Shown here: in pieces, positions 13,007 to 64,000 of the stretch
Position numbering within the stretch: the first letter of the stretch is position 1
Layout: every line of letters begins with the position of its first letter
DNA from: Trypanosoma brucei
Lineage: Eukaryota
Length of the DNA: 64,000 bases
NCBI GenBank assembly: GCA_000002445.1
Contig: AL929603.2
Span: 160,001 to 224,000, forward strand
Reading direction: 5' to 3'
The notes under the pieces: generated by a model
Told to the model about the DNA's origin: nothing
The model's database searches: none
What the model saw: only the letters and a program-made list of their open reading frames with translations
Position numbers and translations under genes: made by a program

Positions 13007-13014
13007 CGCCAGGG

Positions 13015-13026
13015 TGTATAACAAAA
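13015..13026. repeat. 12-nt target-site duplication tgtataacaaaa (right copy) of ingi copy 2
   Basis: It is identical to 7787-7798. It lies between the ingi 5' end and the RHS codons ...GSFLLYT. Confidence 0.8.
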
Positions 13027-31223: not shown

Positions 31224-31248
31224 CCCTGGCGATGCCGGCCACCTCAAC

Positions 31249-32382
31249 GTGGTGCCAGGGTCCAGTACCCCGTATCATCGGGGGAAGCCAAGAGCCAGCA
31301 GCGTTCCTTTCATGGGGAACACTGCTGTGCTCCGGCTACGGCATCATACAGCACAGGGATCAGCAGCGTCTTGCTGGGACACCGTTTTTCATTTGTCGGT
31401 CCCTGGCCACGTGCCAGCGTGCCATCAGCAGTATATCATCCGCACTAAGATGCTGCTGTCCGGTGATGTGGAAGAGAATCCCGGCTCGTCGTTGCGCGGG
31501 ATGCAGTGGAACTGCGCCGGGCTATCTCAAGGAAAGAGATTAGCACTCCACAAAACCCTTGTTGATGAGCGGATCGCCTTTTGTCTGTTGAGCGAGACAA
31601 GGATGACGCCTGGAGAGGCGGCTTGCTTTAGCGTTGCTGGCTACCAACATCACGGAATAGCTCGTAACTGCAAAGGAGGTGGTGTATCAATACTAGTGAG
31701 GGAGGACCTACCAGTCGAGACCGGTATGGCCGTTGTTGGTCGCATTGAAAAAGTGCATGCAACAATTCACCTTGCACGTGGAACGGCGCTGACTGTCACG
31801 TCGGCATACATCCCACCAAAACACACCTTCACGGCAACTGACATAGATACGCTTCTGACAACTGACGGTGCCCAGCTCATCGGTGCAGACGCTAATGCAC
31901 ACGCGTTGGCATGGGATCGCGCGAGCCCACCAAATACCAAGGGTGAAACCCTCACACAGTGGTGCATTGACAACCAGTTTCTGGTCTGCAACACTGGTGA
32001 GTGCACCAGGTACGCGCGCCACCACGGGGAGTCCACCCCTGATGTGACACTGTCAAGGAATTGCACAGTGTACACGTGGACATCGCTGTATTCTCCCGAT
32101 AGCGATCACCATCACATATTTTTCGACGTTATCGTTGGAGACGACACAGATGCACTGAGTTGCCCGCGGCTTCGAAAGCCCATGTACGCATGGCTAAAAG
32201 CTAACTGGAGGAATTTCCGTCTCAAGGTTGACGAGCTCTGCAGGAAAATTGGTAGAGAGAAGAACGTCAACACCCTGGAACAGAAATTGAGCTCCGCCAT
32301 CCGCATTGGACACCTGCGCTCGCGAAACTCGATGAAGAGATCGCTGGATGCGGACCCTCCCGCCGAAGGGAAAAGTTGGTAG
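31249..32382 (+). CDS. ingi ORF1, copy 3 (endonuclease domain intact; 5' part frameshifted, 2A motif DVEENPGS)
   Basis: 377 aa in the track. The endonuclease part is identical to copy 1 apart from scattered substitutions. The upstream reading frame differs from copy 2 because of the TA insertion. Confidence 0.7.
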   Translation: MVPGSSTPYHRGKPRASSVPFMGNTAVLRLRHHTAQGSAASCWDTVFHLSVPGHVPACHQQYIIRTKMLLSGDVEENPGSSLRGMQWNCAGLSQGKRLALHKTLVDERIAFCLLSETRMTPGEAACFSVAGYQHHGIARNCKGGGVSILVREDLPVETGMAVVGRIEKVHATIHLARGTALTVTSAYIPPKHTFTATDIDTLLTTDGAQLIGADANAHALAWDRASPPNTKGETLTQWCIDNQFLVCNTGECTRYARHHGESTPDVTLSRNCTVYTWTSLYSPDSDHHHIFFDVIVGDDTDALSCPRLRKPMYAWLKANWRNFRLKVDELCRKIGREKNVNTLEQKLSSAIRIGHLRSRNSMKRSLDADPPAEGKSW

Positions 32383-35300
32383 CCACGCGTAAGCAGATCC
32401 TGGACCGTACCCCAAAGAAGAGATGGAGCACGCTATGCTCCAGACTTGCGGTGTCAGACCGCTGCAGTTGGCACATTGTCAAGAAGGTATATGCGCCACG
32501 ACCACTAACAACACCGGCTGTACTTGTAGATAACGCGGCCATCACGGACTACCGTCAAGCTGAGAGGTTCAGTAAACTGTACTCGTCCCGCGCAAGAAGG
32601 CACCCCGACTCACACCCACCGGCACCAATAAAGACGATAGCGAGTGAGTTCAGTCCCATCACGATGGCTGAACTACGGAGATCGATCAAACTGCTACCGA
32701 GTGGATCCGCAGCCGGACCTGATTGCTTATACAACGAGGCACTGCAACATCTCTGTAGAACAGCGCTGAATGTTGTTCTGAGGCTATTCAATGAGAGCCT
32801 ACGAACGGGAGTCGTGCCGCCTGCATGGAAGACTGGTGTTATCATCCCCATCCTGAAGGCCGGAAAAAAGGCGGAGGACCTCGATTCTTACAGGCCAGTG
32901 ACGCTCACGAGCTGTCTCTGCAAAGTCATGGAGCGCATAATTGCCGCGAGACTTAGAGACACTGTTGAGTCCCAGCTGACGCCGCAGCAATCAGGCTTTC
33001 GCCCCGGATGCTCAACGCTCGAACAACTCCTGCACGTCCGCGCTGCCCTCTGCCGTCCCACGCACCAATATCGTACGGGTGCTGTATTCGTCGACTACGA
33101 GAAGGCATTTGATACAGTAGACCACGACAAAATTGCGAGGGAAATGCACAGAATGAAGGTATCACCCCACATTGTGAAGTGGTGCGTATCATTTCTGAGT
33201 AACCGAACTGGCAGAGTGAGATTCAAGGAGAAGCTTTCCAGAAGCAGAACATTTGAGCGAGGAGTGCCACAAGGAACTGTCCTTGGCCCAATCATGTTCA
33301 TTATTGTCATGAACTCGTTGAGCCAACGCCTTGCAGAAGTGCCGTTACTGCAGCACGGATTCTTTGCAGACGACCTAACGCTACTTGCGAGGCACACAGA
33401 AAGGGATGTCATCAACCACACACTACAATGCGGCCTAAACGTGGTGTTACAGTGGTCAAAAGAGTACTTCATGTCTGTCAACGTAGCGAAAACAAAGTGC
33501 ACACTCTTCGGGTGTATAGAGCGCCACCCCCTTACGTTGCAACTGGACGGCGAAAGAATAGGAGCTGACAGGACACCGAAGCTTCTAGGAGTAACATTCC
33601 AGTGTCTGCAGGGGATGGCAACACATGCGGCCGAAACGAGACGCAAGATGGACTTCCGACTACTGCAGATAGCAGCCATCTCAGCTTCTACATGGGGGCC
33701 AAGACGACAAGTACTGAGAGCTTTTTATCTAGCACTCGTACAGGCACACACCATGTATGGCATTGAGGTATGGTACTGGGACGCTTCGGAACGAAGTCGC
33801 GACCTCCTTGCATCAGCACAACACAAAGCCAGTCGCATCATAGCCGGCATACCGCATGGGACGCGCAAAGAGGACTCTCTGCTGGAAGCAAACCTCCTGC
33901 CACTCAAGACGACCACCCTTGTGCGCAGCATGAAATTCATGCTGATGTGTGAGTCACGAGGCGGATGTTTGCGGCGCAGTGCTGAAGAAGTATACCACAG
34001 CAAACACCCAGTCAGAGTCCTACATTCCCGCATCATGCGGTCCTACCCCCACCTCCGCATTGAGCCACGCGAGCACCCACTAGAGACATCGACGCTCCGC
34101 CACAGCTGCCGACCGATATTTCACACGCAGATAAAGCCTGTGTGCGCTGATGACCCTGACGATGTCAAAAGGGAGGTTTCCGAAAAGTGGATTGAACGGC
34201 ATTTTGCACGGAGGGGGAAGGAGCCACCGCGGCGAGAGCACTACGAATTGTGGACTGATGGATCCGTGTCCCTCGGTGAGAAGTCCGGAGCAGCTGCCCT
34301 GCTCTACAGAAGCAACACGCTGATTTGCGCACCCAAAACTGGAGCAGGGGAACTCTCATGCAGTTACAGAGCGGAATGCGTAGCATTAGAGATAGGACTG
34401 CAACGGCTGCTGAAATGGCTTCCGGCATACAGAAGCACACCGAGCAGGTTGTCCATCTTCTCTGACTCGCTGTCAATGTTAACAGCACTGCAGACAGGCC
34501 CCCTAGCCGTAACTGACCCAATTCTGAGACGACTATGGAGGCTTCTGCTTCAAGTTCAGAGAAGGAAGGTGCGTATCCGACTGCAATTTGTGTTTGGCCA
34601 TTGTGGCGTGAAACGGAATGAGGTTTGCGATGAAATGGCCAAAAAGGTCGCAGATTTACCACAGTTGCGAGACACATGGATCCCCGACATCATTGCTTAT
34701 GCGAAGCGAGTGCTTAGGTCGGAAGAAGTCCATGAGAACACTCATAGGTTTGGTATCACGGGCAACCACTTTCCAACAAAACATAAGGAAGAACTGATGA
34801 GGGAAGAAGAAACGGCACTGGCACGCTTTCGGGTTGGGTCTTCAAGACAATATGGATGGATGTTGCGAAAGATCAACCCGAGTGTGCCTCCACAGTGCCG
34901 ATGGTGCAACCCGCAACATGCAGAGATAGGGCCAACAATACAAACAGCCCCACCTGTTGCGACACGCACTCTTCAGAGAACCTCCGAACCGACCAAATGT
35001 ACGGAATGTGATGCCACATACCAATGCCGCTCGAGTGCTGTAACGCATATGGTAAACAAACATGGCTTTGTGCGAGCTGATGCCCTCCGGAGGATCAAAT
35101 ACGGCGATGCAACACCTGCAGTGGATATCCCCCCGGAGCCCCCTCCAGTGGTGGCGATCGTTCCCCTACCATCGTGCACACGAGTCCCGATGAGACCGCA
35201 GGTGCTTCATTGTACCATCTGTGCCTCCAAATTCGCAGTGCCAGGCAGACTACTACACCACCTTAGAACAATACATGGCATAGGCAGCGGCAGTTGCCGC

Positions 35301-36158
35301 GTGAAAAGGGGGCGAGAGAACGAGGACTCAGTGCAAGGAGATGGTAAAGCCCCAGCAGCGCCAGCCTCTCAGGATACACGGAAGCTGCCGTTTCAATGTG
35401 ACCTGTGCGAGGCGAGCTTCGGTACACGTTCTTCCCTGACACTACACAAGAAATTCAAACATAAAAGCATAGTGACGGAGGACGGTACCGTGGTGTTGGT
35501 GCAATTCCCTCGTAAGCGTGCCCGTGAGGGAAACGTTGACGTCCCGGGGAAAGGCGAGGTGCAGTGCGGTGTGTGCCAAAAAGTGCTCAGTTGCAGGGAC
35601 TCCCTCATCCGACACTGTAAGGCTTTCCACAAAGGTGAGGGAGTCGAGCTTAAATGCAGCAAAAGCACAAAATTGTGTGCCACTGATTCCCCGCATACAA
35701 ACACATCCATGTTGGTGTGCCCGACATGCGGAAGGCAGTGTGCTAGCAAAACTGGCCTCACCCTACATCAAAAGAAGATGCACGGTATGAAGGTAGAGCG
35801 CGCTGTTACCAGCCAACGCGGCGACTGCGAAGAAACGTCGCTGCACTTGATGAGCTGTCCCGGTTTGAAGGAGTTACGTGTCAGATTTGCGGTAGAAGGT
35901 GAGTGTGTGCAGGATGTATGTTTCTCCAAAAGGCTGGCGCAGTTTCTCATTGCGGTTGAACGGAGCCGGCCGCAGGTGAAGTCCTCACCTAAGGTAACAG
36001 TCATACAACCCACTCTCCCTTCTGCAACTTCCCCCCTTATTGCCGAGTGTGGAGCCAGCAGGAAAAGCACCGGACGCAGGAATAGTCCAGACACCCTCAG
36101 AGACAGAGGAGGTATGCAGTCAACAAGCAACAGAAACAGAAAGAGGGGGAGAGAATAA
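32376..36158 (+). CDS. ingi ORF2 (RT/RNase H/zinc finger), copy 3
   Basis: 1260 aa with the same motifs as copy 1. Confidence 0.85.
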   Translation: MVATRKQILDRTPKKRWSTLCSRLAVSDRCSWHIVKKVYAPRPLTTPAVLVDNAAITDYRQAERFSKLYSSRARRHPDSHPPAPIKTIASEFSPITMAELRRSIKLLPSGSAAGPDCLYNEALQHLCRTALNVVLRLFNESLRTGVVPPAWKTGVIIPILKAGKKAEDLDSYRPVTLTSCLCKVMERIIAARLRDTVESQLTPQQSGFRPGCSTLEQLLHVRAALCRPTHQYRTGAVFVDYEKAFDTVDHDKIAREMHRMKVSPHIVKWCVSFLSNRTGRVRFKEKLSRSRTFERGVPQGTVLGPIMFIIVMNSLSQRLAEVPLLQHGFFADDLTLLARHTERDVINHTLQCGLNVVLQWSKEYFMSVNVAKTKCTLFGCIERHPLTLQLDGERIGADRTPKLLGVTFQCLQGMATHAAETRRKMDFRLLQIAAISASTWGPRRQVLRAFYLALVQAHTMYGIEVWYWDASERSRDLLASAQHKASRIIAGIPHGTRKEDSLLEANLLPLKTTTLVRSMKFMLMCESRGGCLRRSAEEVYHSKHPVRVLHSRIMRSYPHLRIEPREHPLETSTLRHSCRPIFHTQIKPVCADDPDDVKREVSEKWIERHFARRGKEPPRREHYELWTDGSVSLGEKSGAAALLYRSNTLICAPKTGAGELSCSYRAECVALEIGLQRLLKWLPAYRSTPSRLSIFSDSLSMLTALQTGPLAVTDPILRRLWRLLLQVQRRKVRIRLQFVFGHCGVKRNEVCDEMAKKVADLPQLRDTWIPDIIAYAKRVLRSEEVHENTHRFGITGNHFPTKHKEELMREEETALARFRVGSSRQYGWMLRKINPSVPPQCRWCNPQHAEIGPTIQTAPPVATRTLQRTSEPTKCTECDATYQCRSSAVTHMVNKHGFVRADALRRIKYGDATPAVDIPPEPPPVVAIVPLPSCTRVPMRPQVLHCTICASKFAVPGRLLHHLRTIHGIGSGSCRVKRGRENEDSVQGDGKAPAAPASQDTRKLPFQCDLCEASFGTRSSLTLHKKFKHKSIVTEDGTVVLVQFPRKRAREGNVDVPGKGEVQCGVCQKVLSCRDSLIRHCKAFHKGEGVELKCSKSTKLCATDSPHTNTSMLVCPTCGRQCASKTGLTLHQKKMHGMKVERAVTSQRGDCEETSLHLMSCPGLKELRVRFAVEGECVQDVCFSKRLAQFLIAVERSRPQVKSSPKVTVIQPTLPSATSPLIAECGASRKSTGRRNSPDTLRDRGGMQSTSNRNRKRGRE

Positions 36159-36434
36159 TAAACGAATAACAAAAATCAAAACAAAAGGATTGCTAATTGA
36201 CATCTTTGGGAGAGTCCGGGGTGAGGGGGGCTTCTCGCCCCATCTACTGTATTCCGTTCAACTGCGGAGCTACAACAAAAATTATAGAGGGTGTGTTAGG
36301 ATGAATAAAAAAGGGAGACTCTGCCACAGTCGCCAGACCGATAGCATCTCAGGGCTCTACGGTGATGGCTGATGGCCGCGCCAGTTGGGAGAAACTCTCA
36401 CGAAGGCACGAAGAAAATTCTAAAAAAAAAAAAA

Positions 36435-44417: not shown

Positions 44418-47400
44418 TCATTGCGATCCCATGAAATCAAGCGAAAGACGCGTACTTATTCCCATTCCTTGAAGTTCTTGAAGTAAAAGCTTGAAAGCGT
44501 AAGGGACATTTACACGTGAGACGGTATTTTTGGCATTGCAGTATGAACAGTAGCCGTTATAACCCATAAACCCACAGCAGCGGCAAATATCAATTGTGAA
44601 GAGGTCAGAACTCACAAGAAGTCGCTCATTAAGGAGGTTGGATGCGCCATATCCAACCATGCAATCTCTTTCCATTTCACCAACACGCAAACCTCCACTG
44701 CGGGATCGGCCTTCCGTGGGTTGCCTCGTCAACATGGAACGGGGTCCAGTGGCACGAGCGTGCATTTTGTCAGTAACCATGTGTTTTAAGCGTTGGTAAT
44801 AAATGGGGCCAAAGAAAACATAAGCCCGCAGCATCTCCCCCGTTACGCCTGAATAGAAAATATCTTTTCCGTGATAATTGTATCCATGCCGTATCAATTC
44901 CTCACCCAGATCCTCAGCCTTATCACCACCAAAGGCAGTGCCATCGCCGAACTTCCCCGTGAGTGCACTCACCTTTGAGCTAACGAGTTCCAGCAACTTT
45001 CCAACTGTCATACGGCTCGGGAATCCATGAGGATTCATGATCATATCCGGGCAAATGCCTTGCTCGTTGAAGGGCATGTTAACACCATCAGTGATGAGAC
45101 CCACTACTCCCTTCTGCCCGTGCCGTGAGGAAAACTTATCACCGGGCTCGGGGCCGCGAACTTCTCTCGTGACAACTTTAATTTTTTGTTCTACATCCAT
45201 TGATCTATCCGAGTCACCGGGAGGTGAGATGACCACATGATCCACAACAGCAGGCTGAGGGTATTTATATACGAGAGGATTAGGCCTTGGTTCCATGGAC
45301 GGCACGGGAGTGTATTTGTTTACCAAAATATCAAACTGACGAACGACCGCCCCTTTACTGGCAATACCATCGCTATTAAGAGCACTGTGTCTCCCAACAT
45401 TTGAATCTGCTGGAAGAATTATATCATACTCACCGTTGGGAAGCCTTTCCAGTTCCACCTCGTGCTTGCGGAGAACAACACAACGGCCGTAGCCACGATC
45501 GAGCGAACTGCGGTTGTAGACCTGAGCGTCCTCAATATCGTAACCGCTATAGCTCATAACGCATACCATCGCATTAATTCCTGCACCTAATATTTCGTAG
45601 TTGGTTAGGTTCATAGCCTTCGTCCGGCAAAGGGGCCGTTGCGGGTAAGCACCCAACATAAGTACTGTGTCCATTCTAATGTACTGATTATACGCAATGG
45701 TTCCAAGAGCTTGCTTGCCCATGGCTGACTGGAATGTGTTTCGTGCGGATTGATTGTGATGCGGAAAGGGAATAATGCCAGCGACAACCCCAAGCAGGGA
45801 AAGGGGCTCAATCTCCAAGTGGGTCGTGTACTGCTCAATGTCTTTGGGGTAGACTGCTATGAGACAGTCATTTGCCTCATTTACGTCAATGAATTCCACC
45901 AAACCTTCAGCTAAAAAATCGTTAATTGAACACTTGCCTGAACTCAAGTTATCCAAGTGTTGAGAAGTTACAGCGGGTTTCCCGTCGCGAACGACAATAT
46001 ACAACCGCACGATCCGTCCGCCATCGCAACCAATTTGAACACTCTTTTGGCGGTCATTTATCGCAATAGAAACGTGTGGATGCAGGCGGCCTGACCTCCT
46101 CAGGGTTCGTACACCCCGACACAAACGGCTCGGGTACCGGTGAATGCCCATCAACGTTCCATTGAGGAAAACTGTGTAATATTTAAGAAACTCGTTGGGG
46201 CTGATACAATCGACTTCCTCCACTCCAAGATTGTACGCAGCCGCACGCACAAACGAATCATCCATGTCGAGTGTTACCTGACTAAGAATAGCAAAGTTCT
46301 TAACCAAACCGCAACTTTCACCCTCTGGGGTATCGCAGGGACACACCATTCCCCATTGACTTGGCTGCAGCGAGCGCGGTCCACTGATTTTGCGGCTCTT
46401 TTCAAATGAAGATGCCAGACGGGTCATCATACCAATGCATGAAATGTAAGATAGCCGTGACAACACCTGCGTTATCCCCTGACGACTCATGTTAAACCGT
46501 TTCAATTCCCATCTGCCACTACTCAACGCCACACGCATTCCGTTCTGTATAACCTCCATTTTGCTTTCCATCAACTGTTTAAGATTGAATGGCTTTGTCG
46601 TGTCTTTTTTGGAAAGTAACTGATCCATTGCGGTCTTTACCACGCGGTTGTATTGTTTCAAGAGGTCTTCGAACAGGAGCCCCATTAGCGTCCCAGTTGT
46701 CTCGAAACGCTTGTTGCCGTAAAAATCACGTTCATCGAGGAGTGATGAATCCACACTCGCCTCTACCATGCGCCGAACCATAAAACAAACATACAACGCT
46801 TTGTGACGGAAGTTCCAATCACGCTGCACTTCCCCCTCTCGGATGTGACACAGAAGAACATTTGCAAGAAACTCCGCAGCGCTATCCGCCTTAGACTTTT
46901 GAACGTGTCGCTGCTGTGTTTCGTCCATTTCCCAGAAGGTCTCCTTTCGCCGTTCACCAATGAAGTGAAGCGCATCATCCTGTGTCTTAACATTAAGCGA
47001 GGCTGCGTGCTCGAAGCAGGCAAACAGTACGCTTTGAAAAGCGGGTGAAACTCCAATGTGTTGTGCAATCTGCTGGTCACTCTCCATGCCGAGCGCCTTT
47101 AATACTACTACGATGGGGATGTCTTCCTTAAAAGAACGGTGCACCATAACAATACGGCCTTTCCTGAAAGTAACTGAACACTTTGAGATGGAATAGTGCG
47201 TTTTGCTCTGCACATGTGCCACAATATCTCCGTTGTCATCCGCCTCGATAATGACACGATTCTTACTCTGCTGCTCCTGCACCAGGCAAACTTTCTCAAC
47301 ACCTTTAATAATGAAATACCCTCCAGGATCAAGTGGGCACTCCCGCATAGCAATCAGCTCCTCCCTCCCCTTCCCGTACAGGTTGCATGAACTCGATTTG

Positions 47401-47807
47401 AGCATAATGGGGATTGTCCCAATTTTAATATTGGTTTCAGTGCATATTCGTTTAGAGCGATCACGGCTAGTGTACTCCACATCCACTACAATATCGCCGC
47501 GATACGTGAGGTCCCGCGTGCGGCACTCATGCGGTGACACAGGCTTGGGAAGTTGACCCTTTCCCACAATCTCCCGGGGGCGGCAAACGCGAATACCTGA
47601 GTAGCGAATGGAAAAATCTGGATCAATGCTGCTCTTAATTTCTCTGTTTGACTCATTCAACAGAATTCGCCCCAGCTCCACATTGATAAGGTGATCAAAG
47701 GAGGCCACGTGATGGTTCAGCAGTCCCTTCATATTAATAAGGGCTGGAAGCAACGCCAACTTACGCGTGGCGTAACCCTCATCGCAACCACGGGCCCTAG
47801 GGGTCAT
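44418..47807 (-). CDS. RPC2: DNA-directed RNA polymerase III second-largest subunit (RPC2/C128-like), 1129 aa
   Basis: Second-largest-subunit signatures are present: GDKFSSRHGQKGV, CPLDPGGYFIIKGVEKVCLVQEQ, and the C-terminal zinc ribbon CRCCGFMGYNGYCSYCN. The length (1129 aa) and end-to-end collinearity with yeast Ret1 point to Pol III rather than Pol II RPB2. That collinearity includes LLPALINMKGLLNHHVASFDHL and the C-terminus VPYAFKLLLQEL. Confidence 0.8.
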   Translation of the reverse strand: MTPRARGCDEGYATRKLALLPALINMKGLLNHHVASFDHLINVELGRILLNESNREIKSSIDPDFSIRYSGIRVCRPREIVGKGQLPKPVSPHECRTRDLTYRGDIVVDVEYTSRDRSKRICTETNIKIGTIPIMLKSSSCNLYGKGREELIAMRECPLDPGGYFIIKGVEKVCLVQEQQSKNRVIIEADDNGDIVAHVQSKTHYSISKCSVTFRKGRIVMVHRSFKEDIPIVVVLKALGMESDQQIAQHIGVSPAFQSVLFACFEHAASLNVKTQDDALHFIGERRKETFWEMDETQQRHVQKSKADSAAEFLANVLLCHIREGEVQRDWNFRHKALYVCFMVRRMVEASVDSSLLDERDFYGNKRFETTGTLMGLLFEDLLKQYNRVVKTAMDQLLSKKDTTKPFNLKQLMESKMEVIQNGMRVALSSGRWELKRFNMSRQGITQVLSRLSYISCIGMMTRLASSFEKSRKISGPRSLQPSQWGMVCPCDTPEGESCGLVKNFAILSQVTLDMDDSFVRAAAYNLGVEEVDCISPNEFLKYYTVFLNGTLMGIHRYPSRLCRGVRTLRRSGRLHPHVSIAINDRQKSVQIGCDGGRIVRLYIVVRDGKPAVTSQHLDNLSSGKCSINDFLAEGLVEFIDVNEANDCLIAVYPKDIEQYTTHLEIEPLSLLGVVAGIIPFPHHNQSARNTFQSAMGKQALGTIAYNQYIRMDTVLMLGAYPQRPLCRTKAMNLTNYEILGAGINAMVCVMSYSGYDIEDAQVYNRSSLDRGYGRCVVLRKHEVELERLPNGEYDIILPADSNVGRHSALNSDGIASKGAVVRQFDILVNKYTPVPSMEPRPNPLVYKYPQPAVVDHVVISPPGDSDRSMDVEQKIKVVTREVRGPEPGDKFSSRHGQKGVVGLITDGVNMPFNEQGICPDMIMNPHGFPSRMTVGKLLELVSSKVSALTGKFGDGTAFGGDKAEDLGEELIRHGYNYHGKDIFYSGVTGEMLRAYVFFGPIYYQRLKHMVTDKMHARATGPRSMLTRQPTEGRSRSGGLRVGEMERDCMVGYGASNLLNERLLVSSDLFTIDICRCCGFMGYNGYCSYCNAKNTVSRVNVPYAFKLLLQELQGMGISTRLSLDFMGSQ

Positions 47808-51461: not shown

Positions 51462-52094
51462 AACAAAGAAAATAGAAGGAATCAGAATTATACGGCGTTA
51501 TCAAAAAAACAAAAAAAACAATTCGCAGAGTGAAAGAGAGTCGCTCCCAACGTTATACCACAAAAAACACTAAACATATAAGAAAGAAAAAACAGAAAAA
51601 CAGAAAAACAAACAAGACATAAGCACTATCATCGTACGCTTCCTACTTAGTTATAATAACACATATCGATGTTAACAAAAAATTTGAGTAGACCGAAGGA
51701 AATAATCATGGGAATCCTAATAATAAGCATAAACCCCACCAACAAACGAAAAAAGAATTATACTACCAGGATTACCGAAAAAATAGACAAAGTAAAAAAA
51801 AAACTAAAAATTAGCGATAAAATCAAAACATAGGTTGCTTATAAGTATAAATTTCCGCACACAGCTCTTCGAAAACAATGACCGCTAAAAGTGTGCGGCG
51901 TAAGTTCTATTTTACTTTCTACCGACTGCTACTACTGCTACCCGCAACCTTCTCAAGCATTATATTTTGTTTTAAACACTCCCGCACATCCGTCACACGA
52001 CACCCCTCCACGCCACCGCTCAGAGCAACACGCCGCGCAACATGAGACCATAAGGTTCTCGGTATCCATGCGGCACTGGGGGCAAAAGCGGTTC

Positions 52095-52210
52095 GTGTAT
52101 GATTTAGAACAGATAAATTAAATGAACATAAACAAGAGAGGGGAATAATAAAACATAAAAAGAAAAAAGGGAAGAAGAGGAAAGGAGAGGGGGGGGAAGA
52201 AAATAATCAG
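52095..52210 (-). promoter_or_regulatory. long polypyrimidine tract on the coding (minus) strand in the phosphate-transporter/DOT1B intergenic region; candidate trans-splice/polyA signal (duplicated at ~55810-55915)
   Basis: The + strand reads gagaggggaataataaaacataaaaagaaaaaagggaagaagaggaaaggagagggggggg, so the minus strand is C/T-rich. Confidence 0.3.
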
Positions 52211-52454
52211 GACGGTCCCGTATGGTACGGACAGTGCAAGGATGAGTTGCCGTGAAAATATGGGGAAAAGCAGGACAACAGACGTGAGCGACTTCCGCCA
52301 TTGATGATCACATAAGTGACCAAAGGCATTCATTCATCACACGGACTGCGCAACGCATATAAATGCTCCCGTTTCCCGAATCCAACAAACAATCACATCA
52401 CACCGTAGGGTTACCGACGGCAACTACAGCGACTACCAGCTCGCTTCTTGTAAA

Positions 52455-54005
52455 TTACTGCGAGGTGAGACTCGGGGCATATATACCTTGTGCAAAGAGT
52501 AACGCAGATATAGCAGCCGTTATCAAAAGAGTGAATATCCATCCGAGGTACATTTTCCCAACCATCATCCATCGCACCTTGCGGAATCCACAATCCATAA
52601 TACTGATAGCCACAACAGCACCTGTGATGCAGTGTGTTGAAGAGACGGGAATACCGAAGGCGGAACACAGTGACACGACAAGAGCAACGGAAAGTTCTGC
52701 TGAAAACCCACGGCTAGGAGTAATCTTCGTAATGCGTTCCCCAAGCAACCGCATGATTCCAACACCCAGCGTCGCGAGACCAACCACTAACCCAGCTCCA
52801 CCAAGAACCAATATCCATAATGGTACATCGTTCTCTTCTACCACTTGTTGGTTGATATAAATGGAGTACATGGCGGAAAATGGGGCAATGGCGTTACTCA
52901 CATCGTTGGCACCATGTGCGAAGGATGCACAAGCAGCCGTAAATACCTGAAGGTAACGAAACACATACTCCACACGTTCATCATATATTTGCACATCAAA
53001 TTTCAATGCTTCATCAACGACACCCGGTGTGGTCAGTCCACTGGCATTATTTGCAGGGTTTTCTTTAGCTGTTGGAGAGTCGCTGGTTGGCTCGCTCGAT
53101 GGTGGGACTATGCGATTCGCAGTATCAACAGGACCTTCCACCGCTGCCCCCACTCCAGCAGCATTCTCCGATATGGCACCCGCATCTCCTGATATTTCCG
53201 GCGCGGTATTCATCCCTGTTTCAGCCCTTTCCCGCTCAGCTCTTTCAGTTATCAACCTCACACGGCGTCTCAGAAGTGGGATACAAGCCGCAGAAATGGA
53301 GGCAGCCCCAAGTCCAATGAGGGCAGCAACCCATGACGCCTTCGCAGGTCCCCAGTGTAAGCGAGCCTTAGCTCCCTTAAATAGCACAAAGAATGACTCC
53401 AGGAAAAATGTCACTCCGACAATTAATGGAAGGGCAAACAAAGCGCGGTTCACGGAGTTGGCAGGGCGCAGTACAACGAGCCGCAACAATGCATACAGCG
53501 ACGCAGCCACTGCGCCAGCAAACATTGGTGAAATGAACCATGACGCAATGATCGGGGCGACGCCAGTAACATACGGAAATTCATCGATCTTCTTAGCAAA
53601 GGAAACAGCGCCAAAACCACCGTACACAAGCGCAAAACCAATTATAGCACCCGCAATGCTATGAGTTGAAGACACGGGAAGGCTCATCATGGTGGCGAAT
53701 AACAACCAAATGAAGGTTGCACTCAATGCGCACATCATACCGTACATCAGCACATATGGTTCATTTGCAAATGTCATTGGATTCGCAATACCACCTGATA
53801 TTGTTGAGGTTACTTCAGACCCAAGAGAAACGGCACCCACAAACTCACAGATGGAGGCGAGTATAACAATTTGCCACAGGTTGAGCACTCGCGAGCCATA
53901 CGTTGTACCAAAGGAATTCGCGAGGTCATTCATACCAACACCACAGCCGGTGAGGAACGAAACGATCCCACCGACAATAATGACCCATAAGTATGGATGC
54001 ACCAT
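52455..54005 (-). CDS. inorganic phosphate transporter, PHO4/PiT family (Na+/Pi symporter-like), copy A, 516 aa
   Basis: The PiT signature GANDVSNAIAPF is present. The sequence is multi-pass and hydrophobic. There is a large central hydrophilic loop (RRRVRLITERAERERAETG...). Confidence 0.8.
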   Translation of the reverse strand: MVHPYLWVIIVGGIVSFLTGCGVGMNDLANSFGTTYGSRVLNLWQIVILASICEFVGAVSLGSEVTSTISGGIANPMTFANEPYVLMYGMMCALSATFIWLLFATMMSLPVSSTHSIAGAIIGFALVYGGFGAVSFAKKIDEFPYVTGVAPIIASWFISPMFAGAVAASLYALLRLVVLRPANSVNRALFALPLIVGVTFFLESFFVLFKGAKARLHWGPAKASWVAALIGLGAASISAACIPLLRRRVRLITERAERERAETGMNTAPEISGDAGAISENAAGVGAAVEGPVDTANRIVPPSSEPTSDSPTAKENPANNASGLTTPGVVDEALKFDVQIYDERVEYVFRYLQVFTAACASFAHGANDVSNAIAPFSAMYSIYINQQVVEENDVPLWILVLGGAGLVVGLATLGVGIMRLLGERITKITPSRGFSAELSVALVVSLCSAFGIPVSSTHCITGAVVAISIMDCGFRKVRWMMVGKMYLGWIFTLLITAAISALLFAQGIYAPSLTSQ

Positions 54006-55584: not shown

Positions 55585-57790
55585 GCGCCCGCTAAAAGTG
55601 TGCGGCGTAAGTTCTATTTTACTTTCTACCGACTGCTACTACTGCTACCCGCAACCTTCTCAAGCATTATATTTTGTTTTAAACACTCCCGCACATCCGT
55701 CACACGACACCCCTCCACGCCACCGCTCAGAGCAACACGCCGCGCAACATGAGACCATAAGGTTCTCGGTATCCATGCGGCACTGGGGGCAAAAGCGGTT
55801 CGTGTATGATTTAGAACAGATAAATTAAATGAACATAAACAAGAGAGGGGAATAATAAAACATAAAAAGAAAAAAGGGAAGAAGAGGAAAGGAGAGGGGG
55901 GGGGGAAGAAAATAATCAGGACGGTCCCGTATGGTACGGACAGTGCAAGGATGAGTTGCCGTGAAAATATGGGGAAAAGCAGGACAACAGACCTGAGCGA
56001 TTTCCGCCATTGATGATCACATAAGTGACCAAAGGCATTCATTCATCACACGGACTGCGCAACGCATATAAATGCTCCCGTTTCCCGAATCCAACAAACA
56101 ATCACATCACACCGTAGGGTTACCGACGGCAACTACAGCGACTACCAGCTCGCTTCTTGCAAATTACTGCGAGGTGAGACTCGGGGCATATATACCTTGT
56201 GCAAAGAGTAACGCAGATATAGCAGCCGTTATCAAAAGAGTGAATATCCATCCGAGGTACATTTTCCCAACCATCATCCATCGCACCTTGCGGAATCCAC
56301 AATCCATAATACTGATAGCCACAACAGCACCTGTGATGCAGTGTGTTGAAGAGACGGGAATACCGAAGGCGGAACACAGTGACACGACAAGAGCAGCGGA
56401 AAGTTCTGCTGAAAACCCACGGCTAGGAGTAATCTTCGTAATGCGTTCCCCAAGCAACCGCATGATTCTAACACCCAACGTCGCGAGACCAACCACTAAC
56501 CCAGCTCCACCAAGAACCAATATCCATAATGGTACATCGTTCTCTTCTACCACTTGTTGGTTGATATAAATGGAGTACATGGCGGAAAATGGGGCAATGG
56601 CGTTACTCACATCGTTGGCACCATGTGCGAAGGATGCACAAACGGCCGTAAATACCTGAAGGTAACGAAACACATACTCCACACGTTCATCATATATTTG
56701 CACATCAAATTTCAATGCTTCATCAACGACACCTGTCATACTTAGTCGACTCATATTTTTCGATTGGTACTCAGTTGTTGGAGAGTCGCTGGTTGGCTCG
56801 CTCGATGGTGGGACTATGCGATTCGCAGTATCAACAGGACCTTCCACCGCTGCCCCCACTCCAGCAGCATTCTCTGATATGGCACCCGCATCTCCTGATA
56901 TTTCCGGCGCGGTATTCATCCCTGTTTCAGCCCTTTCCCGCTCAGCTCTTTCAGTTATCAACCTCACACGGCGTCTCAGAAGTGGGATACAAGCCGCAGA
57001 AATGGAGGCAGCCCCAAGTCCAATGAGGGCAGCAACCCATGACGCCTTCGCAGGTCCCCAGTGTAGATGAGAGTCCGCTCCCTTAAATAGCACAAAGAAT
57101 GACTCCAGGAAAAATGTCACTCCGACAATTAATGGAAGGGCAAACAAAGCGCGGTTCACGGAGTTGGCAGGGCGCAGTACAACGAGCCGCAACAATGCAT
57201 ACAGCGAAGCAGCCACTGCGCCAGCAAACACTGGTGAAATGAACCATGACGCAATGATCGGGGCGACGCCAGTAACATACGGAAATTCATCGATCTTCTT
57301 AGCAAAGGAAACAGCGCCAAAACCACCGTACACAAGCGCAAAGCCAATTATAGCACCCGCAATGCTATGAGTTGAAGACACGGGAAGGCTCATCATGGTG
57401 GCGAATAACAACCAAATGAAGGTTGCACTCAATGCGCACATCATACCGTACATCAGCACATATGGTTCATTTGCAAATGTCATTGGATTCGCAATACCAC
57501 CTGATATTGTTGAGGTTACTTCAGACCCAAGAGAAACGGCACCCACAAGCTCACAGATGGAGGCGAGTATAACAATTTGCCACAGGTTGAGCACTCGCGA
57601 GCCATACGTTGTACCAAAGGAATTCGCGAGGTCATTCATACCAACACCACAGCCGGTGAGGAACGAAACGATCCCACCGACAATAATGACCCATAAGTAT
57701 GGATGCACCATGATGAAATATGGTATTCACTTACTTCTTTCTCCTTGTTTACAATAATCTTATAGCTTAAGGCCAGCACGTAACTTACTA
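55585..57790 (-). repeat. tandem duplication unit B (phosphate transporter gene + 3' flank)
   Basis: See unit A. The 54090-55585 spacer is unique. Confidence 0.9.
56164..57711 (-). CDS. inorganic phosphate transporter, PHO4/PiT family, copy B, 515 aa
   Basis: It is about 98% identical to copy A. It differs in two short patches of the central loop (TTEYQSKNMSRLSMTG vs AKENPANNASGLTTPG, and GADSHLHW vs GAKARLHW). Confidence 0.8.
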   Translation of the reverse strand: MVHPYLWVIIVGGIVSFLTGCGVGMNDLANSFGTTYGSRVLNLWQIVILASICELVGAVSLGSEVTSTISGGIANPMTFANEPYVLMYGMMCALSATFIWLLFATMMSLPVSSTHSIAGAIIGFALVYGGFGAVSFAKKIDEFPYVTGVAPIIASWFISPVFAGAVAASLYALLRLVVLRPANSVNRALFALPLIVGVTFFLESFFVLFKGADSHLHWGPAKASWVAALIGLGAASISAACIPLLRRRVRLITERAERERAETGMNTAPEISGDAGAISENAAGVGAAVEGPVDTANRIVPPSSEPTSDSPTTEYQSKNMSRLSMTGVVDEALKFDVQIYDERVEYVFRYLQVFTAVCASFAHGANDVSNAIAPFSAMYSIYINQQVVEENDVPLWILVLGGAGLVVGLATLGVRIMRLLGERITKITPSRGFSAELSAALVVSLCSAFGIPVSSTHCITGAVVAISIMDCGFRKVRWMMVGKMYLGWIFTLLITAAISALLFAQGIYAPSLTSQ

Positions 57791-60726: not shown

Positions 60727-63700
60727 CTATTCTCGCATAAGATCAGCGACGCTACACTGTTCCTTGATGAAAGTAGCACGAACCATTTCACTTCCCTCTA
60801 CACTGAACATGAACAGGCAATGCTTCAAGGAGCCAGAAAGAATATTGAGCAACATCTTCCATTCATTAGAGAGCCATTGCAAACCGACCAACTCCTCCGG
60901 TGGGGTCCCTGAGACATCGGAGGTAATTTCCACCACGTGCGATTGAGTGAGAAGCCGCCACCAGCACTCTTCGTGAGGTGTCTGCCAATCTTCTAATTGT
61001 TTAATGCGAGCCAAGTAATAATCCGCAAAAATCTCGTCCACTGTTAAGGCGCATGCTCGTTTCAATGGAATACACTGCTCCAATAATGAATGAAGCACGG
61101 AAGGAGATCTTACCTTGGTTTGAGCGCATTGTTTTGCGGTGGCACCAAATTGAATATCAGCCTCAAAGTACACAAGGCTCTGAGAAAAGTCCGAGGGGGA
61201 CACTACAAACTTTCCACTTCCAGAGACGAGAGTGCTGGGACGGCCACCCAAAATCTCAATGCATTCGGGTTTGTCAGAGCCCTGGCACTTGAGAAGCCGA
61301 AATCCCACAATGTTGCCAAATACATGACGCCGTGGGCTAGCCTTGACATTCGAGGACCTTAAATCCTCTACCTGTTCTTCTTCACTGCTTAAGGTACGTG
61401 CTGCACTTGTTTCTGAAACCGTAATACTCTGCTCAACAGGGGTAGATGCTTCCTGGCGTAATTGATACCGTGGAGACGGCTGCGCTGTGGCTGCAGGATT
61501 AGGTAACTCATCCCCTCCAACCAGTTCTCTCGACAGTCGACATATATCGGCCCGAGCTTCCTCACTCAACGTCCGCATTCGTAGCAGCTCCTCAGAACGG
61601 GCAATAATAGGCCTACTTGACTTCGCCATCCCACGAATTTTCCCAAGTGACTCAACAACACCGCGAAGGAGCGGCTCAGCAGGACGGCTGTAAACCTTCG
61701 TGTACTCATTCGCCAGTACGTGTATGCAATCGGGTCCCAAGTCCTCCGCGCAACGTATAAAAGAAGCATTCTGCACAATAACAGGTGTGAATGGTATTGA
61801 TGGCAAAGCAAGCACAATCTCTTTTGAGCCCGTGGCATGTGGGACATCAATCATAAAGTAGGAAGCCGGAACACATCCAGGTTTCCATCCGTCATTTAAG
61901 GCCACGATAATATGTGAGTTGACCGTGTCCACACTCTTGGTGCCGACGAACAAGCCAGCAAAATCGATGGCATCACCTGTCTCTGTTTTTGGGGACACAT
62001 CTTCAGCTGAGCGCAAAGGTTGCCTCACAAACCCCTTACGCGGCGGTGAGACTATGCTATACCGAAGAGGGCTCCGAGAGTACAAAACTGTCGTCCGCTG
62101 GAAGGGGTGACCAGGTCGGAAGCGTGAAGGGGTTACGGAGAAAACGACAATCTCAGCTCCCTCCGGTGGAAAATCACACGAATGTTCCTCCAAATCCCCC
62201 GCCGGACAGTTGGCACCGCAATCATCCCATATTTGCAAGAGGACGTCCCCCTGTCGCTCACAAGACAACAAAAACGATGTCAGACGTGAAAGTTGTCGGT
62301 CACTTTTTCCTTCAAACGGAGCAACAGCTCCGCGTGCCATACATTCCTGGAAACTTAGCTGCGCCAATAAACTCCTCACAATTTTCAACGCACCACCTGT
62401 GCTGCCTCTTGTGTCGCCAGTTCGCGCACCCTTAAATGTTTTCTCAAGGAAAAAGGGCGGAAGCACGCGCTCCACTCGCCCTTTCAAACAAGGTACCAAA
62501 CCACCAAGCATATCCATAGCGGAAGGCAGCAGTGTCGGCAAACAAGTATGATAGAGACCTAGAGGTGAGGAAGGTCCCACAGGTTGTGTGCAGTTGTAGT
62601 TAATGGAGAGGAGCACTTCATCTTTGCATTCTAGTGGAGAACAACAGTCTCTCCTCAGCATCCTCGCACCGCAAGTAACAATCTTCTGACCACACCGCAG
62701 GGTTCCATTACGAACTAAGTTCGTTAATGGAATATCAAGAGACACTTTAACGTGGTAAAACCCATCGGAAACCACTGCCGTGCAGGTGTGAGGAGTAAGG
62801 CGCTCCTCAAAAGATACCGACACTACCCAGACTACCACCAGTGAGGCTGCTTGAACGTCCCCTTCCGCAATCAAACGCAAAGCAGGCCGTTTGCCCTCAA
62901 CATACTCGTGATTATATTTAAAACACATGTGAAGCAAAGTATGTGCGACAGAAAACACGGGAAGGGGTGGATCAATGTGTAATGTGAGTCCCCGCAACTT
63001 CAGAAGCGTGGACGTCAACATTTGAAGACACCACGCATCTGGGCAGCCCCGTGGAGAAGCCCCCAAGGTAAGCATGGCCTTACGAAAATTTGCCGATGGT
63101 ATGAACTCACACTCCGCTGGTATTTCCAGTAACTTCAGAAGTTCAGGTGAACACCCAAATTGCTTAAACAAAAAGTTTCCTCGCACAATCTCGTCAATTG
63201 AGGGAGGTACCGTCATCGATAATGAGCGAAACGTGAAAATGTCAAACGAAAGATGTCGGGGGGTTCGACCTACTTCCGACCCCTCACCCTCTGAACTCGG
63301 CATGTGGGACGCCGATGGCACCGCTTCCCCTACTCCTTTCGCAACCGCTCCTTTATTCTTAGCAAAAGGAACCACAAACGGCTTTCTTGCTAGCTTGGAT
63401 GATGACAATGGCGATGATGATGCTGATTTACGGTGTGTACGTGGCGTCCTCTTCGACAAGGAGGCACCTGCTCCCGAAATGGGTTTAGCAGATGAAGCTG
63501 CGTTCGCACTTGCTACTTGCAGTGACGACTCTGATACAGTTACGGTTTTACCAGCGGCAGATACAAAAAGCGTTGGAACATCTGTGGAATTTCCTTGTAC
63601 CGCAGTGCTCTCTTGGCCATTTTCAGTATTCATTCGTGCCCTTGCTACTTGCAGTGACGACTCTGATACAGTTATGGGTTTACCAGCGGCAGATACAAAA

Positions 63701-64000
63701 AGCGTTGGAACATCTGTGGAATTTCCTTGTACCGCAGTGCTCTCTTGGCCATTTTCAGTATTCATTCGTGCCCTTGCTACTTGCAGTGACGACTCTGATA
63801 CAGTTATGGGTTTACCAGCGGCAGATACAAAAAGCGTTGGAACATCTGTGGAATTTCCTTGTACCGCAGTGCTCTCTTGGCCATTTTCAGTATTCATTCG
63901 TGCCCTTGCTACTTGCAGTGACGACTCTGATACAGTTATGGGTTTACCAGCAGCAGATACAAAAAGCGTTGGAACATCTGTGGAATTTCCTTGTACCGCA
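60727..64000 (-). CDS. BRCA2: BRCA2 homologue, C-terminal ~1090 codons (BRC repeat array + helical/OB DNA-binding region); 5' end outside window
   Basis: It carries tandem 44-aa BRC repeats containing the RAD51-binding core LFVSAAGKPITVSESSLQVA (consensus F-x-[TS]-A-x-G-K...[VI]...S). A large conserved C-terminal domain follows. A T. brucei BRCA2 with many identical BRC repeats is established knowledge. Confidence 0.75.
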   Translation of the reverse strand, partial: AVQGNSTDVPTLFVSAAGKPITVSESSLQVARARMNTENGQESTAVQGNSTDVPTLFVSAAGKPITVSESSLQVARARMNTENGQESTAVQGNSTDVPTLFVSAAGKPITVSESSLQVARARMNTENGQESTAVQGNSTDVPTLFVSAAGKTVTVSESSLQVASANAASSAKPISGAGASLSKRTPRTHRKSASSSPLSSSKLARKPFVVPFAKNKGAVAKGVGEAVPSASHMPSSEGEGSEVGRTPRHLSFDIFTFRSLSMTVPPSIDEIVRGNFLFKQFGCSPELLKLLEIPAECEFIPSANFRKAMLTLGASPRGCPDAWCLQMLTSTLLKLRGLTLHIDPPLPVFSVAHTLLHMCFKYNHEYVEGKRPALRLIAEGDVQAASLVVVWVVSVSFEERLTPHTCTAVVSDGFYHVKVSLDIPLTNLVRNGTLRCGQKIVTCGARMLRRDCCSPLECKDEVLLSINYNCTQPVGPSSPLGLYHTCLPTLLPSAMDMLGGLVPCLKGRVERVLPPFFLEKTFKGARTGDTRGSTGGALKIVRSLLAQLSFQECMARGAVAPFEGKSDRQLSRLTSFLLSCERQGDVLLQIWDDCGANCPAGDLEEHSCDFPPEGAEIVVFSVTPSRFRPGHPFQRTTVLYSRSPLRYSIVSPPRKGFVRQPLRSAEDVSPKTETGDAIDFAGLFVGTKSVDTVNSHIIVALNDGWKPGCVPASYFMIDVPHATGSKEIVLALPSIPFTPVIVQNASFIRCAEDLGPDCIHVLANEYTKVYSRPAEPLLRGVVESLGKIRGMAKSSRPIIARSEELLRMRTLSEEARADICRLSRELVGGDELPNPAATAQPSPRYQLRQEASTPVEQSITVSETSAARTLSSEEEQVEDLRSSNVKASPRRHVFGNIVGFRLLKCQGSDKPECIEILGGRPSTLVSGSGKFVVSPSDFSQSLVYFEADIQFGATAKQCAQTKVRSPSVLHSLLEQCIPLKRACALTVDEIFADYYLARIKQLEDWQTPHEECWWRLLTQSHVVEITSDVSGTPPEELVGLQWLSNEWKMLLNILSGSLKHCLFMFSVEGSEMVRATFIKEQCSVADLMRE
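63502..64000 (-). repeat. BRC repeat array: perfect 132-bp (44-codon) tandem units, >=3.8 units in window, continuing beyond the window edge; most C-terminal unit diverged
   Basis: The string tgctacttgc recurs at 63511, 63643, 63775 and 63907. The intervening sequence is identical. Confidence 0.9.

What the first reader, a model, noticed from the sequence alone, without database searches (positions are those of the whole stretch)
63400..64000. Perfectly homogenised 132-bp BRC repeat array in BRCA2 running off the window edge
At least four consecutive units are nucleotide-identical. The most C-terminal unit (about 63500-63540) diverges (…GKTVTVSESSLQVASANA…). Identical tandem coding repeats imply recent expansion or concerted evolution. 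They are prone to copy-number change and to collapse in assemblies. The number of RAD51-binding BRC motifs is functionally relevant in trypanosome homologous recombination and VSG switching, so the true unit count here matters and cannot be judged from this window.
Basis: partly seen in the sequence, partly recalled or inferred. Interest (0 to 1): 0.5.

Follow-up and report, generated by a model that had tools for sequence, protein, structure and literature searches.

The report
Known BRC repeat array, T. brucei BRCA2
This is the tail end of the well-studied tandem array of RAD51-binding BRC repeats in the Trypanosoma brucei BRCA2 gene; it is real, but its structure, copy-number variation and function were already described in 2008 and 2013.

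Summary
The repeat is real. Tandem Repeats Finder reports a 132-bp period at window 63509-64000, 3.7 copies, 99% matches and no indels. It lies in a minus-strand ORF that stops at 60727 and runs off the window at 64000.

The protein is BRCA2 (Pfam OB1 domain 98 bits, BRC repeat 76 bits). It is 1090/1090 identical to the C-terminal part of T. b. brucei TREU927 XP_001218767.1, which has 15 BRC cores. The MVR-PCR primers of Hartley & McCulloch 2008 match the window exactly.

- The window holds only 3.7 units, and only two complete units are identical.
- The edge unit has one synonymous change.
- The terminal unit has two amino-acid changes plus a degenerate tail.

Reported allele counts are 11/11, 12/10, 12/12, 8/5 and 8/6, against 15 in the reference.

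One claim fails. A one-BRC variant supported normal VSG switching frequency.

Verdict: already known, low interest.

The parts
60727..64000 (-). 3' part of the BRCA2 ORF. It encodes 1090 codons, has a TAG stop at 60727-60729, and its 5' end lies beyond the window edge.
   Evidence: Open minus-strand frame. Pfam BRCA-2_OB1 and BRC repeat. 1090/1090 identical to the C-terminus of TREU927 XP_001218767.1. The published ORF reverse primer matches at 60730-60748.
63499..64000 (-). C-terminal end of the BRC repeat array: 3.7-3.8 units of 132 bp (44 aa), four FxxA cores.
   Evidence: TRF period 132, 3.7 copies, 99% matches. FVSAAGK occurs 4 times, 132 bp apart. The published repeat primer matches 4 times.
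63895..64000 (-). Partial BRC unit cut by the window edge (coding register NTENGQ...ARARM). It carries GCT at the FxxA alanine codon (63952-63954).
   Evidence: T at this position is what every unit of DAL972, T. b. equiperdum and T. equiperdum has.
63763..63894 (-). Complete canonical BRC unit (GCC variant).
   Evidence: Identical to the next unit. A single unit scores 27.3 bits against PF00634, cut-off 20.3.
63631..63762 (-). Complete canonical BRC unit (GCC variant).
63499..63630 (-). Terminal, degenerate BRC unit. It has Pro-Ile to Thr-Val at 63541-63546 and the tail ARARM changed to ASANA. This is 'BRC repeat 15' of the literature.
   Evidence: It scores 20.5 bits against PF00634, just above the cut-off. 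Described as degenerate in PMC2408642.
63459..63478 (+). Site of the published flanking MVR-PCR primer TbBRCreprev, just downstream (in coding sense) of the array.
   Evidence: Exact single match. Primer sequence from PMC2408642 section 14.
62551..62886 (-). BRCA2 OB1 fold (residues 372-483 of the partial protein). It lies in the conserved DNA/DSS1-binding region homologous to solved BRCA2 structures (residues 351-526, window 62422-62949).
   Evidence: PF09103 98.4 bits. 1iyj, 1miu and 1mje at E 9e-21 to 1e-18.

Best explanation
The region is the C-terminal-coding end of the tandem BRC-repeat array of Trypanosoma brucei BRCA2. The sequence is indistinguishable at protein level from strain TREU927. 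Each 132-bp unit encodes 44 residues containing one BRC motif (VPTLFVSAAGKPITVSESSLQ) with an FxxA core (FVSA). In other BRC repeats this core docks into the RAD51 self-association pocket, so the array acts as a multivalent RAD51-binding platform. The downstream OB-fold region binds DNA and DSS1. More units let one BRCA2 molecule hold or move more RAD51, and RAD51 focus formation after damage rises with unit number. At the DNA level the units are kept nearly identical, and the copy number changes, through recombination or slippage between the 132-bp units (unequal exchange or gene conversion). The last unit, at the array boundary, escapes homogenisation and has degenerated. Shown here: the anatomy, the identity of the protein and locus, the nucleotide variants, and the differing counts among assemblies. 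Shown in the literature: allele and strain counts, and the effect of unit number on RAD51 foci and recombination. Inferred: physical BRC-RAD51 contact in T. brucei, and the homogenisation mechanism.
For: Array anatomy. BRCA2 identity: Pfam OB1 98.4 bits and BRC 75.7 bits, single unit 27.3 bits, solved BRCA2 DNA-binding domains at E about 1e-20. Locus identity: 1090/1090 residues identical to TREU927 BRCA2, which has 15 cores spaced 44 aa; all three published primers match exactly; same gene neighbours (ASF1, two PHO4, WD40) as the DAL972 locus. Homogenisation: synonymous sites are as uniform as the rest, with 1 synonymous difference in 360 compared bases. The GCC variant is shared by the three C-terminal units of the window but is absent from all units of three other assemblies, which suggests local spread or local duplication. 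Copy-number variation: 15, 4 and 6 units in different assemblies; published counts are 11/11, 12/10, 12/12, 8/5 and 8/6. Expansion: related species have one or two cores (for T. vivax and T. congolense). Function: RAD51 foci increase with 1, 4, 7, 10 and 12 BRC units; repair is defective only with one unit, and only in bloodstream forms (PMC3553974); recombination efficiency also depends on the array (PMC2408642 abstract). Binding mode: the unit keeps Val(-4), Thr(-2), Leu(-1), Phe and Ala, the residues that form the contacts in the Leishmania LiBRC1:RAD51 crystal structure, and like LiBRC1 it lacks a human-type LFDE (RMNT here) (PMC9162458; sequence).
Against: Nothing contradicts the identification, but four caveats apply. 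The number of units in the source genome cannot be read from this window. The reference annotation (15) disagrees with the experimental count for the same strain (11 per allele). Term searches of the two T. brucei papers found no direct BRC-RAD51 binding assay (two-hybrid, immunoprecipitation, pull-down), so physical binding in T. brucei rests on motif conservation and genetics. BRCA2 and RAD51 show only limited co-localisation in the nucleus (PMC3553974 abstract).
Confidence: 0.95

Rival explanations
1. The near-identity of the units is an assembly artefact: reads from a short array were stacked into extra copies.
For: The reference predicts 15 units where MVR-PCR found 11 per allele in the same strain, so the total in the source assembly may well be wrong. 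Other assemblies give 4 units, 6 units, or break inside the array.
Against: MVR-PCR ladders, Southern blots and sequenced PCR clones from five strains or subspecies all show 5-12 near-identical units. Four independent assemblies show the same 132-bp unit. The part inside this window holds four cores, fewer than the smallest allele measured. The units also carry distinct variants in a consistent order, which simple stacking would not produce.
Confidence: 0.03
2. The array is old, and its uniformity reflects strong purifying selection on each BRC unit rather than recent expansion or concerted evolution.
For: The BRC core is functionally constrained. A 44-aa tandem spacing is already present in T. 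cruzi and T. conorhini.
Against: Selection on the protein does not keep synonymous sites identical, yet only one synonymous difference is seen. T. vivax has one core, and T. congolense has two or three. Unit number differs between alleles and subspecies. Within a species, repeats are more alike (0.82-0.88) than between species (0.30-0.79).
Confidence: 0.02
3. The repeats act mainly as something other than RAD51-binding sites, for example as a flexible spacer or through the antisense open frames that run through the array.
For: Two plus-strand frames have no stop codon across the array. BRCA2 and RAD51 co-localise only partly. No direct binding assay for T. brucei was found.
Against: Each unit passes Pfam's BRC threshold and keeps the RAD51-contact residues known from LiBRC1. 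RAD51 foci scale with unit number. Any stop-free 132-bp unit gives open antisense frames automatically when repeated. From, all ORFs of at least 220 aa between about 43 kb and the window end lie on the minus strand. That this run is one polycistronic unit, making antisense expression unlikely, is my inference from general knowledge of trypanosome transcription.
Confidence: 0.02

Closest known systems
T. brucei BRCA2 BRC array as described by Hartley & McCulloch 2008 (PMC2408642) and Trenaman et al. 2013 (PMC3553974); protein XP_001218767.1 / CAJ15962.1
   Same: It is the same locus. The unit is 132 bp (44 aa), the most C-terminal unit is degenerate, and upstream units differ by less than one base per repeat. 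The protein is 1090/1090 identical and all published primers match.
   Different: Nothing of substance differs. The window shows only the last 3.7 units. The variant positions I list (GCC/GCT at the FxxA alanine, Thr-Val against Pro-Ile in the terminal unit) were 'data not shown' in the paper.
Human BRCA2 BRC1-BRC8 (e.g. BRC4 in complex with RAD51)
   Same: It shares the FxxA core followed by a Gly-Lys turn (FVSAAGK here, FHTASGK in BRC4, the latter recalled from my own knowledge of BRC4). It also shares the Pfam PF00634 match. The downstream OB-fold DNA-binding region is homologous.
   Different: The human repeats are eight non-identical motifs spread unevenly through a long exon, and they use a second LFDE module (PMC9162458; PMC2408642). 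Here the units are head-to-tail and near-identical at the DNA level, and the LFDE position reads RMNT.
Leishmania infantum LiBRC1 (crystal structure with LiRAD51; PMC9162458)
   Same: The residues that make the LiBRC1 contacts are kept: Val(-4), Thr(-2), Leu(-1), Phe, Ala, Gly-Lys, and the later Val, Ser and Leu. Neither has a functional LFDE-type motif.
   Different: Leishmania has two divergent repeats (48-58% identical) spaced 38 aa. The Ser after FxxA is Ala in T. brucei, and the Arg124 salt-bridge position is Ser. Binding of the T. brucei unit has not been measured.
Two-unit BRC tandems of T. cruzi, T. conorhini and T. theileri BRCA2
   Same: They have the same 44-45-aa head-to-tail spacing and high within-species similarity (0.82-0.88), which suggests the unit that was amplified in T. 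brucei is older than the expansion.
   Different: They have only two units. Their core is FSTA, not FVSA.
Drosophila yakuba dmbrca2 BRC-repeat expansion (PMC2882388, abstract only)
   Same: It is a recent lineage-specific expansion of a BRC array, with repeat-number changes within and between close species.
   Different: It is an unrelated lineage. I did not examine its unit structure or its degree of identity.

Membership tests
BRCA2 orthologue | OB-fold DNA/DSS1-binding region (Pfam BRCA-2_OB1) | tested here: met
   PF09103 98.4 bits against a cut-off of 25.6, residues 372-483. Aligns to solved BRCA2 structures 1iyj, 1miu and 1mje at E 9e-21 to 1e-18.
BRCA2 orthologue | At least one BRC repeat N-terminal to the DNA-binding region | tested here: met
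   PF00634 75.7 bits against a cut-off of 20.3. Four FVSAAGK cores lie upstream of the OB fold.
BRCA2 orthologue | BRCA2 helical domain (PF09169) | tested here: inconclusive
   No Pfam hit at E<=0.01. The alignment to 1iyj begins upstream of OB1 (query 351, chain 245). PMC2408642 states that most domains of the DSS1-DNA-binding region are conserved in kinetoplastids.
BRC repeat (PF00634) | A single unit reaches Pfam's gathering score | tested here: met
   The canonical unit scores 27.3 bits and the terminal degenerate unit 20.5 bits, against a cut-off of 20.3.
BRC repeat (PF00634) | FxxA core motif | tested here: met
   F-V-S-A is present in all four units.
BRC repeat (PF00634) | Second, LFDE-type hydrophobic module (defines human repeats) | tested here: not met
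   The aligned tetrad is RMNT in canonical units and is lost in the terminal unit. PMC9162458 shows this module is dispensable in Leishmania and absent in Trypanosoma repeats, so it is not a universal requirement.
BRC repeat (PF00634) | Physical binding to RAD51 | not testable with these tools
   Term searches found no direct assay in the two T. brucei papers. Binding is inferred from the motif, from RAD51-focus genetics and from the Leishmania structure.
Published T. brucei BRCA2 locus | Sequence identity to the reference protein, and matches to the published primers | tested here: met
   1090/1090 identical to XP_001218767.1. TbBRCrepfor matches 4 times, TbBRCreprev once and TbBRCA2rev once, all exactly.
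Published T. brucei BRCA2 locus | 132-bp units, degenerate C-terminal unit, less than one base change per upstream unit | tested here: met
   against the description.
Published T. brucei BRCA2 locus | Same neighbouring genes as in a related genome | tested here: met
   ASF1, a 302-aa ORF, two PHO4 genes and a WD40 gene lie downstream in both the window and the DAL972 locus.
Coding minisatellite under concerted evolution | Head-to-tail units of equal length with homogenised synonymous sites | tested here: met
   No indels. One synonymous difference in 360 compared bases.
Coding minisatellite under concerted evolution | Copy-number polymorphism between alleles or strains | tested here: met
   Assemblies give 15, 4 and 6 units. 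These counts are not reliable on their own; the experimental counts are in PMC2408642.
Coding minisatellite under concerted evolution | Repeats more alike within a species than between species | tested here: met
   Similarity is 0.82-1.00 within Trypanosoma species and 0.30-0.79 between them.

The most novel reading that the evidence does not exclude
The 15-unit reference against 11-unit PCR discrepancy in one strain may reflect real, rapid length mutation of the array in laboratory stocks rather than an assembly error. The GCC variant, confined in what I could see to the three C-terminal units of the window, may reflect polar, edge-biased homogenisation. If both hold, BRC number would be a fast-evolving quantitative trait that tunes RAD51 supply. 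It might matter for processes not yet tested for BRC-number dependence, such as the BRCA2-dependent mosaic VSG formation reported in 2026 (PMC13233330).
Probability: 0.15. Interest if true: 0.35.

Novelty: already known. Interest (0 to 1): 0.1.

Why it matters
The array matters biologically. It is the largest and most uniform BRC expansion described in a BRCA2 protein, and it sets how much RAD51 is moved to damage in a parasite that depends on recombination for antigenic variation. All of that has been published. The practical value of this finding is only a caution for annotation: the BRC unit count in any T. brucei assembly should not be trusted without reads that span the array. The reference count for this strain (15) disagrees with the experimental count (11).

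Tried and rejected
1. I tried to read the rest of the array beyond position 64000. The TREU927 BRCA2 protein is not in the gene-position index. Going through the neighbouring ASF1 gene returned only DAL972, T. b. equiperdum, T. equiperdum and two short Logan contigs. The distribution of the GCC/GCT variant over the other units of the source assembly therefore stays unknown.

2. I looked for long-read sizing of the array in a 2025 nanopore paper (PMC11739655) and for BRC-number tests in the 2026 mosaic-VSG paper (PMC13233330). Neither addresses it.

3. I considered that BRCA2 is a pseudogene in T. b. equiperdum, because it is called as fragments. I rejected this: the only four indels over 2.9 kb are single-base deletions inside homopolymer runs, which I read as consensus error, and the other T. 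equiperdum assembly has an intact reading frame.

4. I considered an antisense gene, because two plus-strand frames are open through the array. I rejected this as an automatic by-product of repeating a stop-free unit.

5. Pfam's DUF3956 hit falls below its cut-off on a single unit (14 bits against 22.3) and overlaps the BRC match, so I ignored it.

6. I did not run structure prediction. A single intrinsically unstructured BRC unit without RAD51 would not be informative, and RAD51 is not in the window.
Full report
**Observation.** Tandem Repeats Finder reports one array at window 63509-64000: period 132, 3.7 copies, 99% matches, no indels, score 963. It is the only tandem array scoring 80 or more in the 64-kb window. 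I compared the units base by base in register:
- 63641-63772 and 63773-63904 are identical.
- 63509-63640 differs at two positions (63543 and 63546).
- The 96-nt partial unit 63905-64000 differs at one position (63952).

No similarity to the unit remains below 63509 apart from a few bases. So the array is real and far beyond chance. But the window holds 3.7 units, not 'at least four identical' ones, and only two complete units are identical.

**Reading frame and variants.** The array is coding on the minus strand, in a frame open from the window edge down to a TAG stop at 60727-60729. In the coding register each unit reads NTENGQESTAVQGNSTDVPTLFVSAAGKPITVSESSLQVARARM. The three variants are as follows:
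- 63952 changes GCC to GCT. This is synonymous and falls on the alanine of the FxxA core.
- 63541-63546 read ACC GTA (Thr-Val) where the other units read CCC ATA (Pro-Ile).
- In the terminal unit the tail ARARM becomes ASANA.

Two plus-strand frames are also free of stops across the array. I regard this as a by-product of repeating a stop-free unit.

**What the protein is.** The 1090-residue partial protein hits Pfam BRCA-2_OB1 (98.4 bits, cut-off 25.6) and the BRC repeat family PF00634 (75.7 bits, cut-off 20.3). It aligns to the solved mammalian BRCA2 DNA-binding domain (1iyj, 1miu, 1mje; E 9e-21 to 1e-18). A single canonical unit scores 27.3 bits against PF00634, and the terminal unit 20.5 bits, just above the cut-off.

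The nearest database cluster contains four entries: T. b. gambiense DAL972 (1164 aa), T. b. brucei TREU927 XP_001218767.1 (1648 aa) and two T. equiperdum entries. The window protein is identical at 1090 of 1090 positions to the C-terminus of the TREU927 protein. It differs at 8 positions from DAL972 and at 6 from T. equiperdum. The TREU927 protein has 15 FVSAAGK cores spaced exactly 44 residues, so in that annotation 11 more cores lie beyond position 64000.

**It is the published locus.** Hartley & McCulloch 2008 (PMC2408642) describe this array as follows:
- The genome predicts 15 BRC repeats, 14 of them identical, each 44 aa (132 bp).
- The most C-terminal repeat is degenerate.
- Upstream repeats differ by less than one base per repeat, both within a gene and between strains.

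Their primers match the window exactly. The repeat primer matches four times, once per unit. The flanking primer matches once at 63459-63478. The ORF reverse primer matches at 60730-60748, next to the stop codon. The downstream neighbours in the window (ASF1, a 302-aa ORF, two PHO4 genes, a WD40 gene) are the same as in the DAL972 locus.

**Unit number.** MVR-PCR, Southern blots and sequenced PCR clones gave these allele counts:

| Strain or subspecies | BRC units per allele |
|---|---|
| T. b. brucei TREU927 | 11 / 11 (the reference predicts 15) |
| T. b. brucei Lister 427 | 12 / 10 |
| T. b. brucei EATRO795 | 12 / 12 |
| T. b. rhodesiense | 8 / 5 |
| T. b. gambiense | 8 / 6 |

The assemblies I could read show how unreliable assembled counts are:
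- DAL972 has 4 units, all identical.
- A chromosome-scale T. b. equiperdum assembly has 6 units.
- A T. equiperdum contig begins inside the array.

I could not obtain TREU927 DNA beyond the window.

**Evidence for homogenisation and expansion.** Synonymous sites are as uniform as non-synonymous ones. Selection on the protein alone would not produce this. The GCC variant is shared by the three C-terminal units of the window, whereas every unit in the three other assemblies has GCT. This fits local spread of a variant or a local duplication.

The Thr-Val form of the terminal unit is shared with T. b. equiperdum. DAL972 and the other T. equiperdum have Pro-Ile there, identical to their upstream units. 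The boundary of homogenisation therefore differs between lineages.

Related species have few cores:
- One core: T. vivax, T. grayi and T. melophagium.
- Two cores spaced 44 aa: T. cruzi and T. conorhini.
- Two cores spaced 45 aa: T. theileri.
- Two cores spaced 38 aa: Leishmania.

Within-species similarity of the paired repeats (0.82-0.88) exceeds between-species similarity (0.30-0.79). The 44-aa tandem unit is therefore older than T. brucei, and T. brucei amplified it. This is a small addition to the paper, which described T. cruzi simply as having two non-identical repeats.

**How it works.** Established knowledge of BRC repeats, as reviewed in PMC9162458, is that the FxxA core occupies the pocket RAD51 uses for self-association. 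The T. brucei unit keeps Val(-4), Thr(-2), Leu(-1), Phe, Ala, Gly-Lys and the later Val, Ser and Leu. These are the residues that form the extended beta-hairpin and hydrophobic contacts in the Leishmania LiBRC1:RAD51 crystal structure. Like LiBRC1 it lacks a human-type LFDE module; the aligned tetrad is RMNT. It differs from LiBRC1 in having Ala for the Ser after FxxA, and Ser for the salt-bridging Arg124.

The genetic evidence in T. brucei is as follows:
- BRCA2 variants with 1, 4, 7, 10 or 12 units give progressively more RAD51 foci after phleomycin.
- Damage repair is impaired only with one unit, and only in bloodstream forms (PMC3553974).
- Recombination efficiency also depends on the array (PMC2408642 abstract).

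Term searches of these two papers found no direct BRC-RAD51 binding assay for T. brucei. That step is inferred.

**Rivals.**
- An assembly artefact cannot explain the in-window part. Four cores is fewer than any measured allele, independent assemblies share the unit, and the units carry ordered variants. The total in the source assembly may still be wrong.
- Ancient repeats preserved by selection are excluded by the synonymous uniformity and by the low counts in sister species.
- A function other than RAD51 binding is unlikely given the motif conservation and the RAD51-focus data.

**Verdict.** The feature is already known in detail, so interest is low.

Noticed in passing
window 433-5423 (+), 7944-12996 (-), 31204-36296 (+): Three copies of one retroelement of about 5 kb, 96-99% identical to each other. 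Each has a ~1260-aa ORF with reverse transcriptase, RNase H and a C2H2 zinc finger. This looks like an ingi-type non-LTR retrotransposon; the family name comes from my own knowledge and was not tested.
   Followed up: partly
window 11858-14089 (-): A 743-aa ORF joins retrotransposon-hot-spot protein domains (RHS_N at 228 bits, the start of the RHSP P-loop) to an endonuclease/exonuclease/phosphatase domain. This is as expected if a retroelement inserted into an RHS gene and the two frames run on.
   Followed up: no
window 21680-26029 (+): A 1449-aa leucine-rich-repeat protein (LRR_4 at 183 bits) with an internal 852-bp periodicity at about 72% identity. It lies alone in an AT-rich stretch between retroelement copies.
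   Followed up: no
window 51882-54005 and 55589-57711 (-): A tandem duplication of about 3.7 kb carrying two PHO4-family phosphate transporter genes (516 and 515 aa). The copies are 98-100% identical, including flanking non-coding sequence. The same pair is present in DAL972. This is another locally homogenised duplicate.
   Followed up: partly
window about 43000-64000: Every ORF of at least 220 aa from about 43 kb to the window end is on the minus strand: an RNA polymerase second-largest subunit at 44418-47807, a WD40 gene, two PHO4 genes, ASF1 and BRCA2 among them. The left 43 kb is a mixed-strand region rich in retroelements and RHS sequences. This looks like the boundary between a repeat-rich zone and a conserved gene cluster.
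   Followed up: no
window 63302-64000 (+): Two plus-strand (antisense) frames contain no stop codon across the BRC array. I judged this a by-product of repeating a stop-free 132-bp unit.
   Followed up: partly
L004 5611-9365 (T. b. equiperdum GCA_003543875.1): BRCA2 is annotated as separate 332-aa and 300-aa fragments. Over 2.9 kb the only indels relative to the window are four single-base deletions, each in a homopolymer run. This is probably consensus error, not gene decay. The array there has 6 units.
   Followed up: yes
L002 1-200 (T. equiperdum GCA_001457755.2, contig CZPT02001863.1): The contig begins inside the BRC array, with two cores only, and the annotated protein starts at the Met that ends the preceding repeat unit (ARARM). 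This is a concrete case of an assembly breaking at this array.
   Followed up: yes
P0002, P0006, P0008 (T. conorhini, T. cruzi, T. theileri BRCA2): Each has two BRC cores 44-45 residues apart that are 82-88% identical to each other. That is more alike than repeats from different species. The 44-aa tandem unit, and probably its homogenisation, therefore predate the T. brucei expansion.
   Followed up: partly
window 63541-63546; L001, L002, L004 terminal units: The terminal BRC unit is polymorphic in the T. brucei group. It is Thr-Val in the window, in TREU927 and in T. b. equiperdum. It is Pro-Ile in DAL972 and T. equiperdum OVI, identical there to the upstream units.
   Followed up: partly
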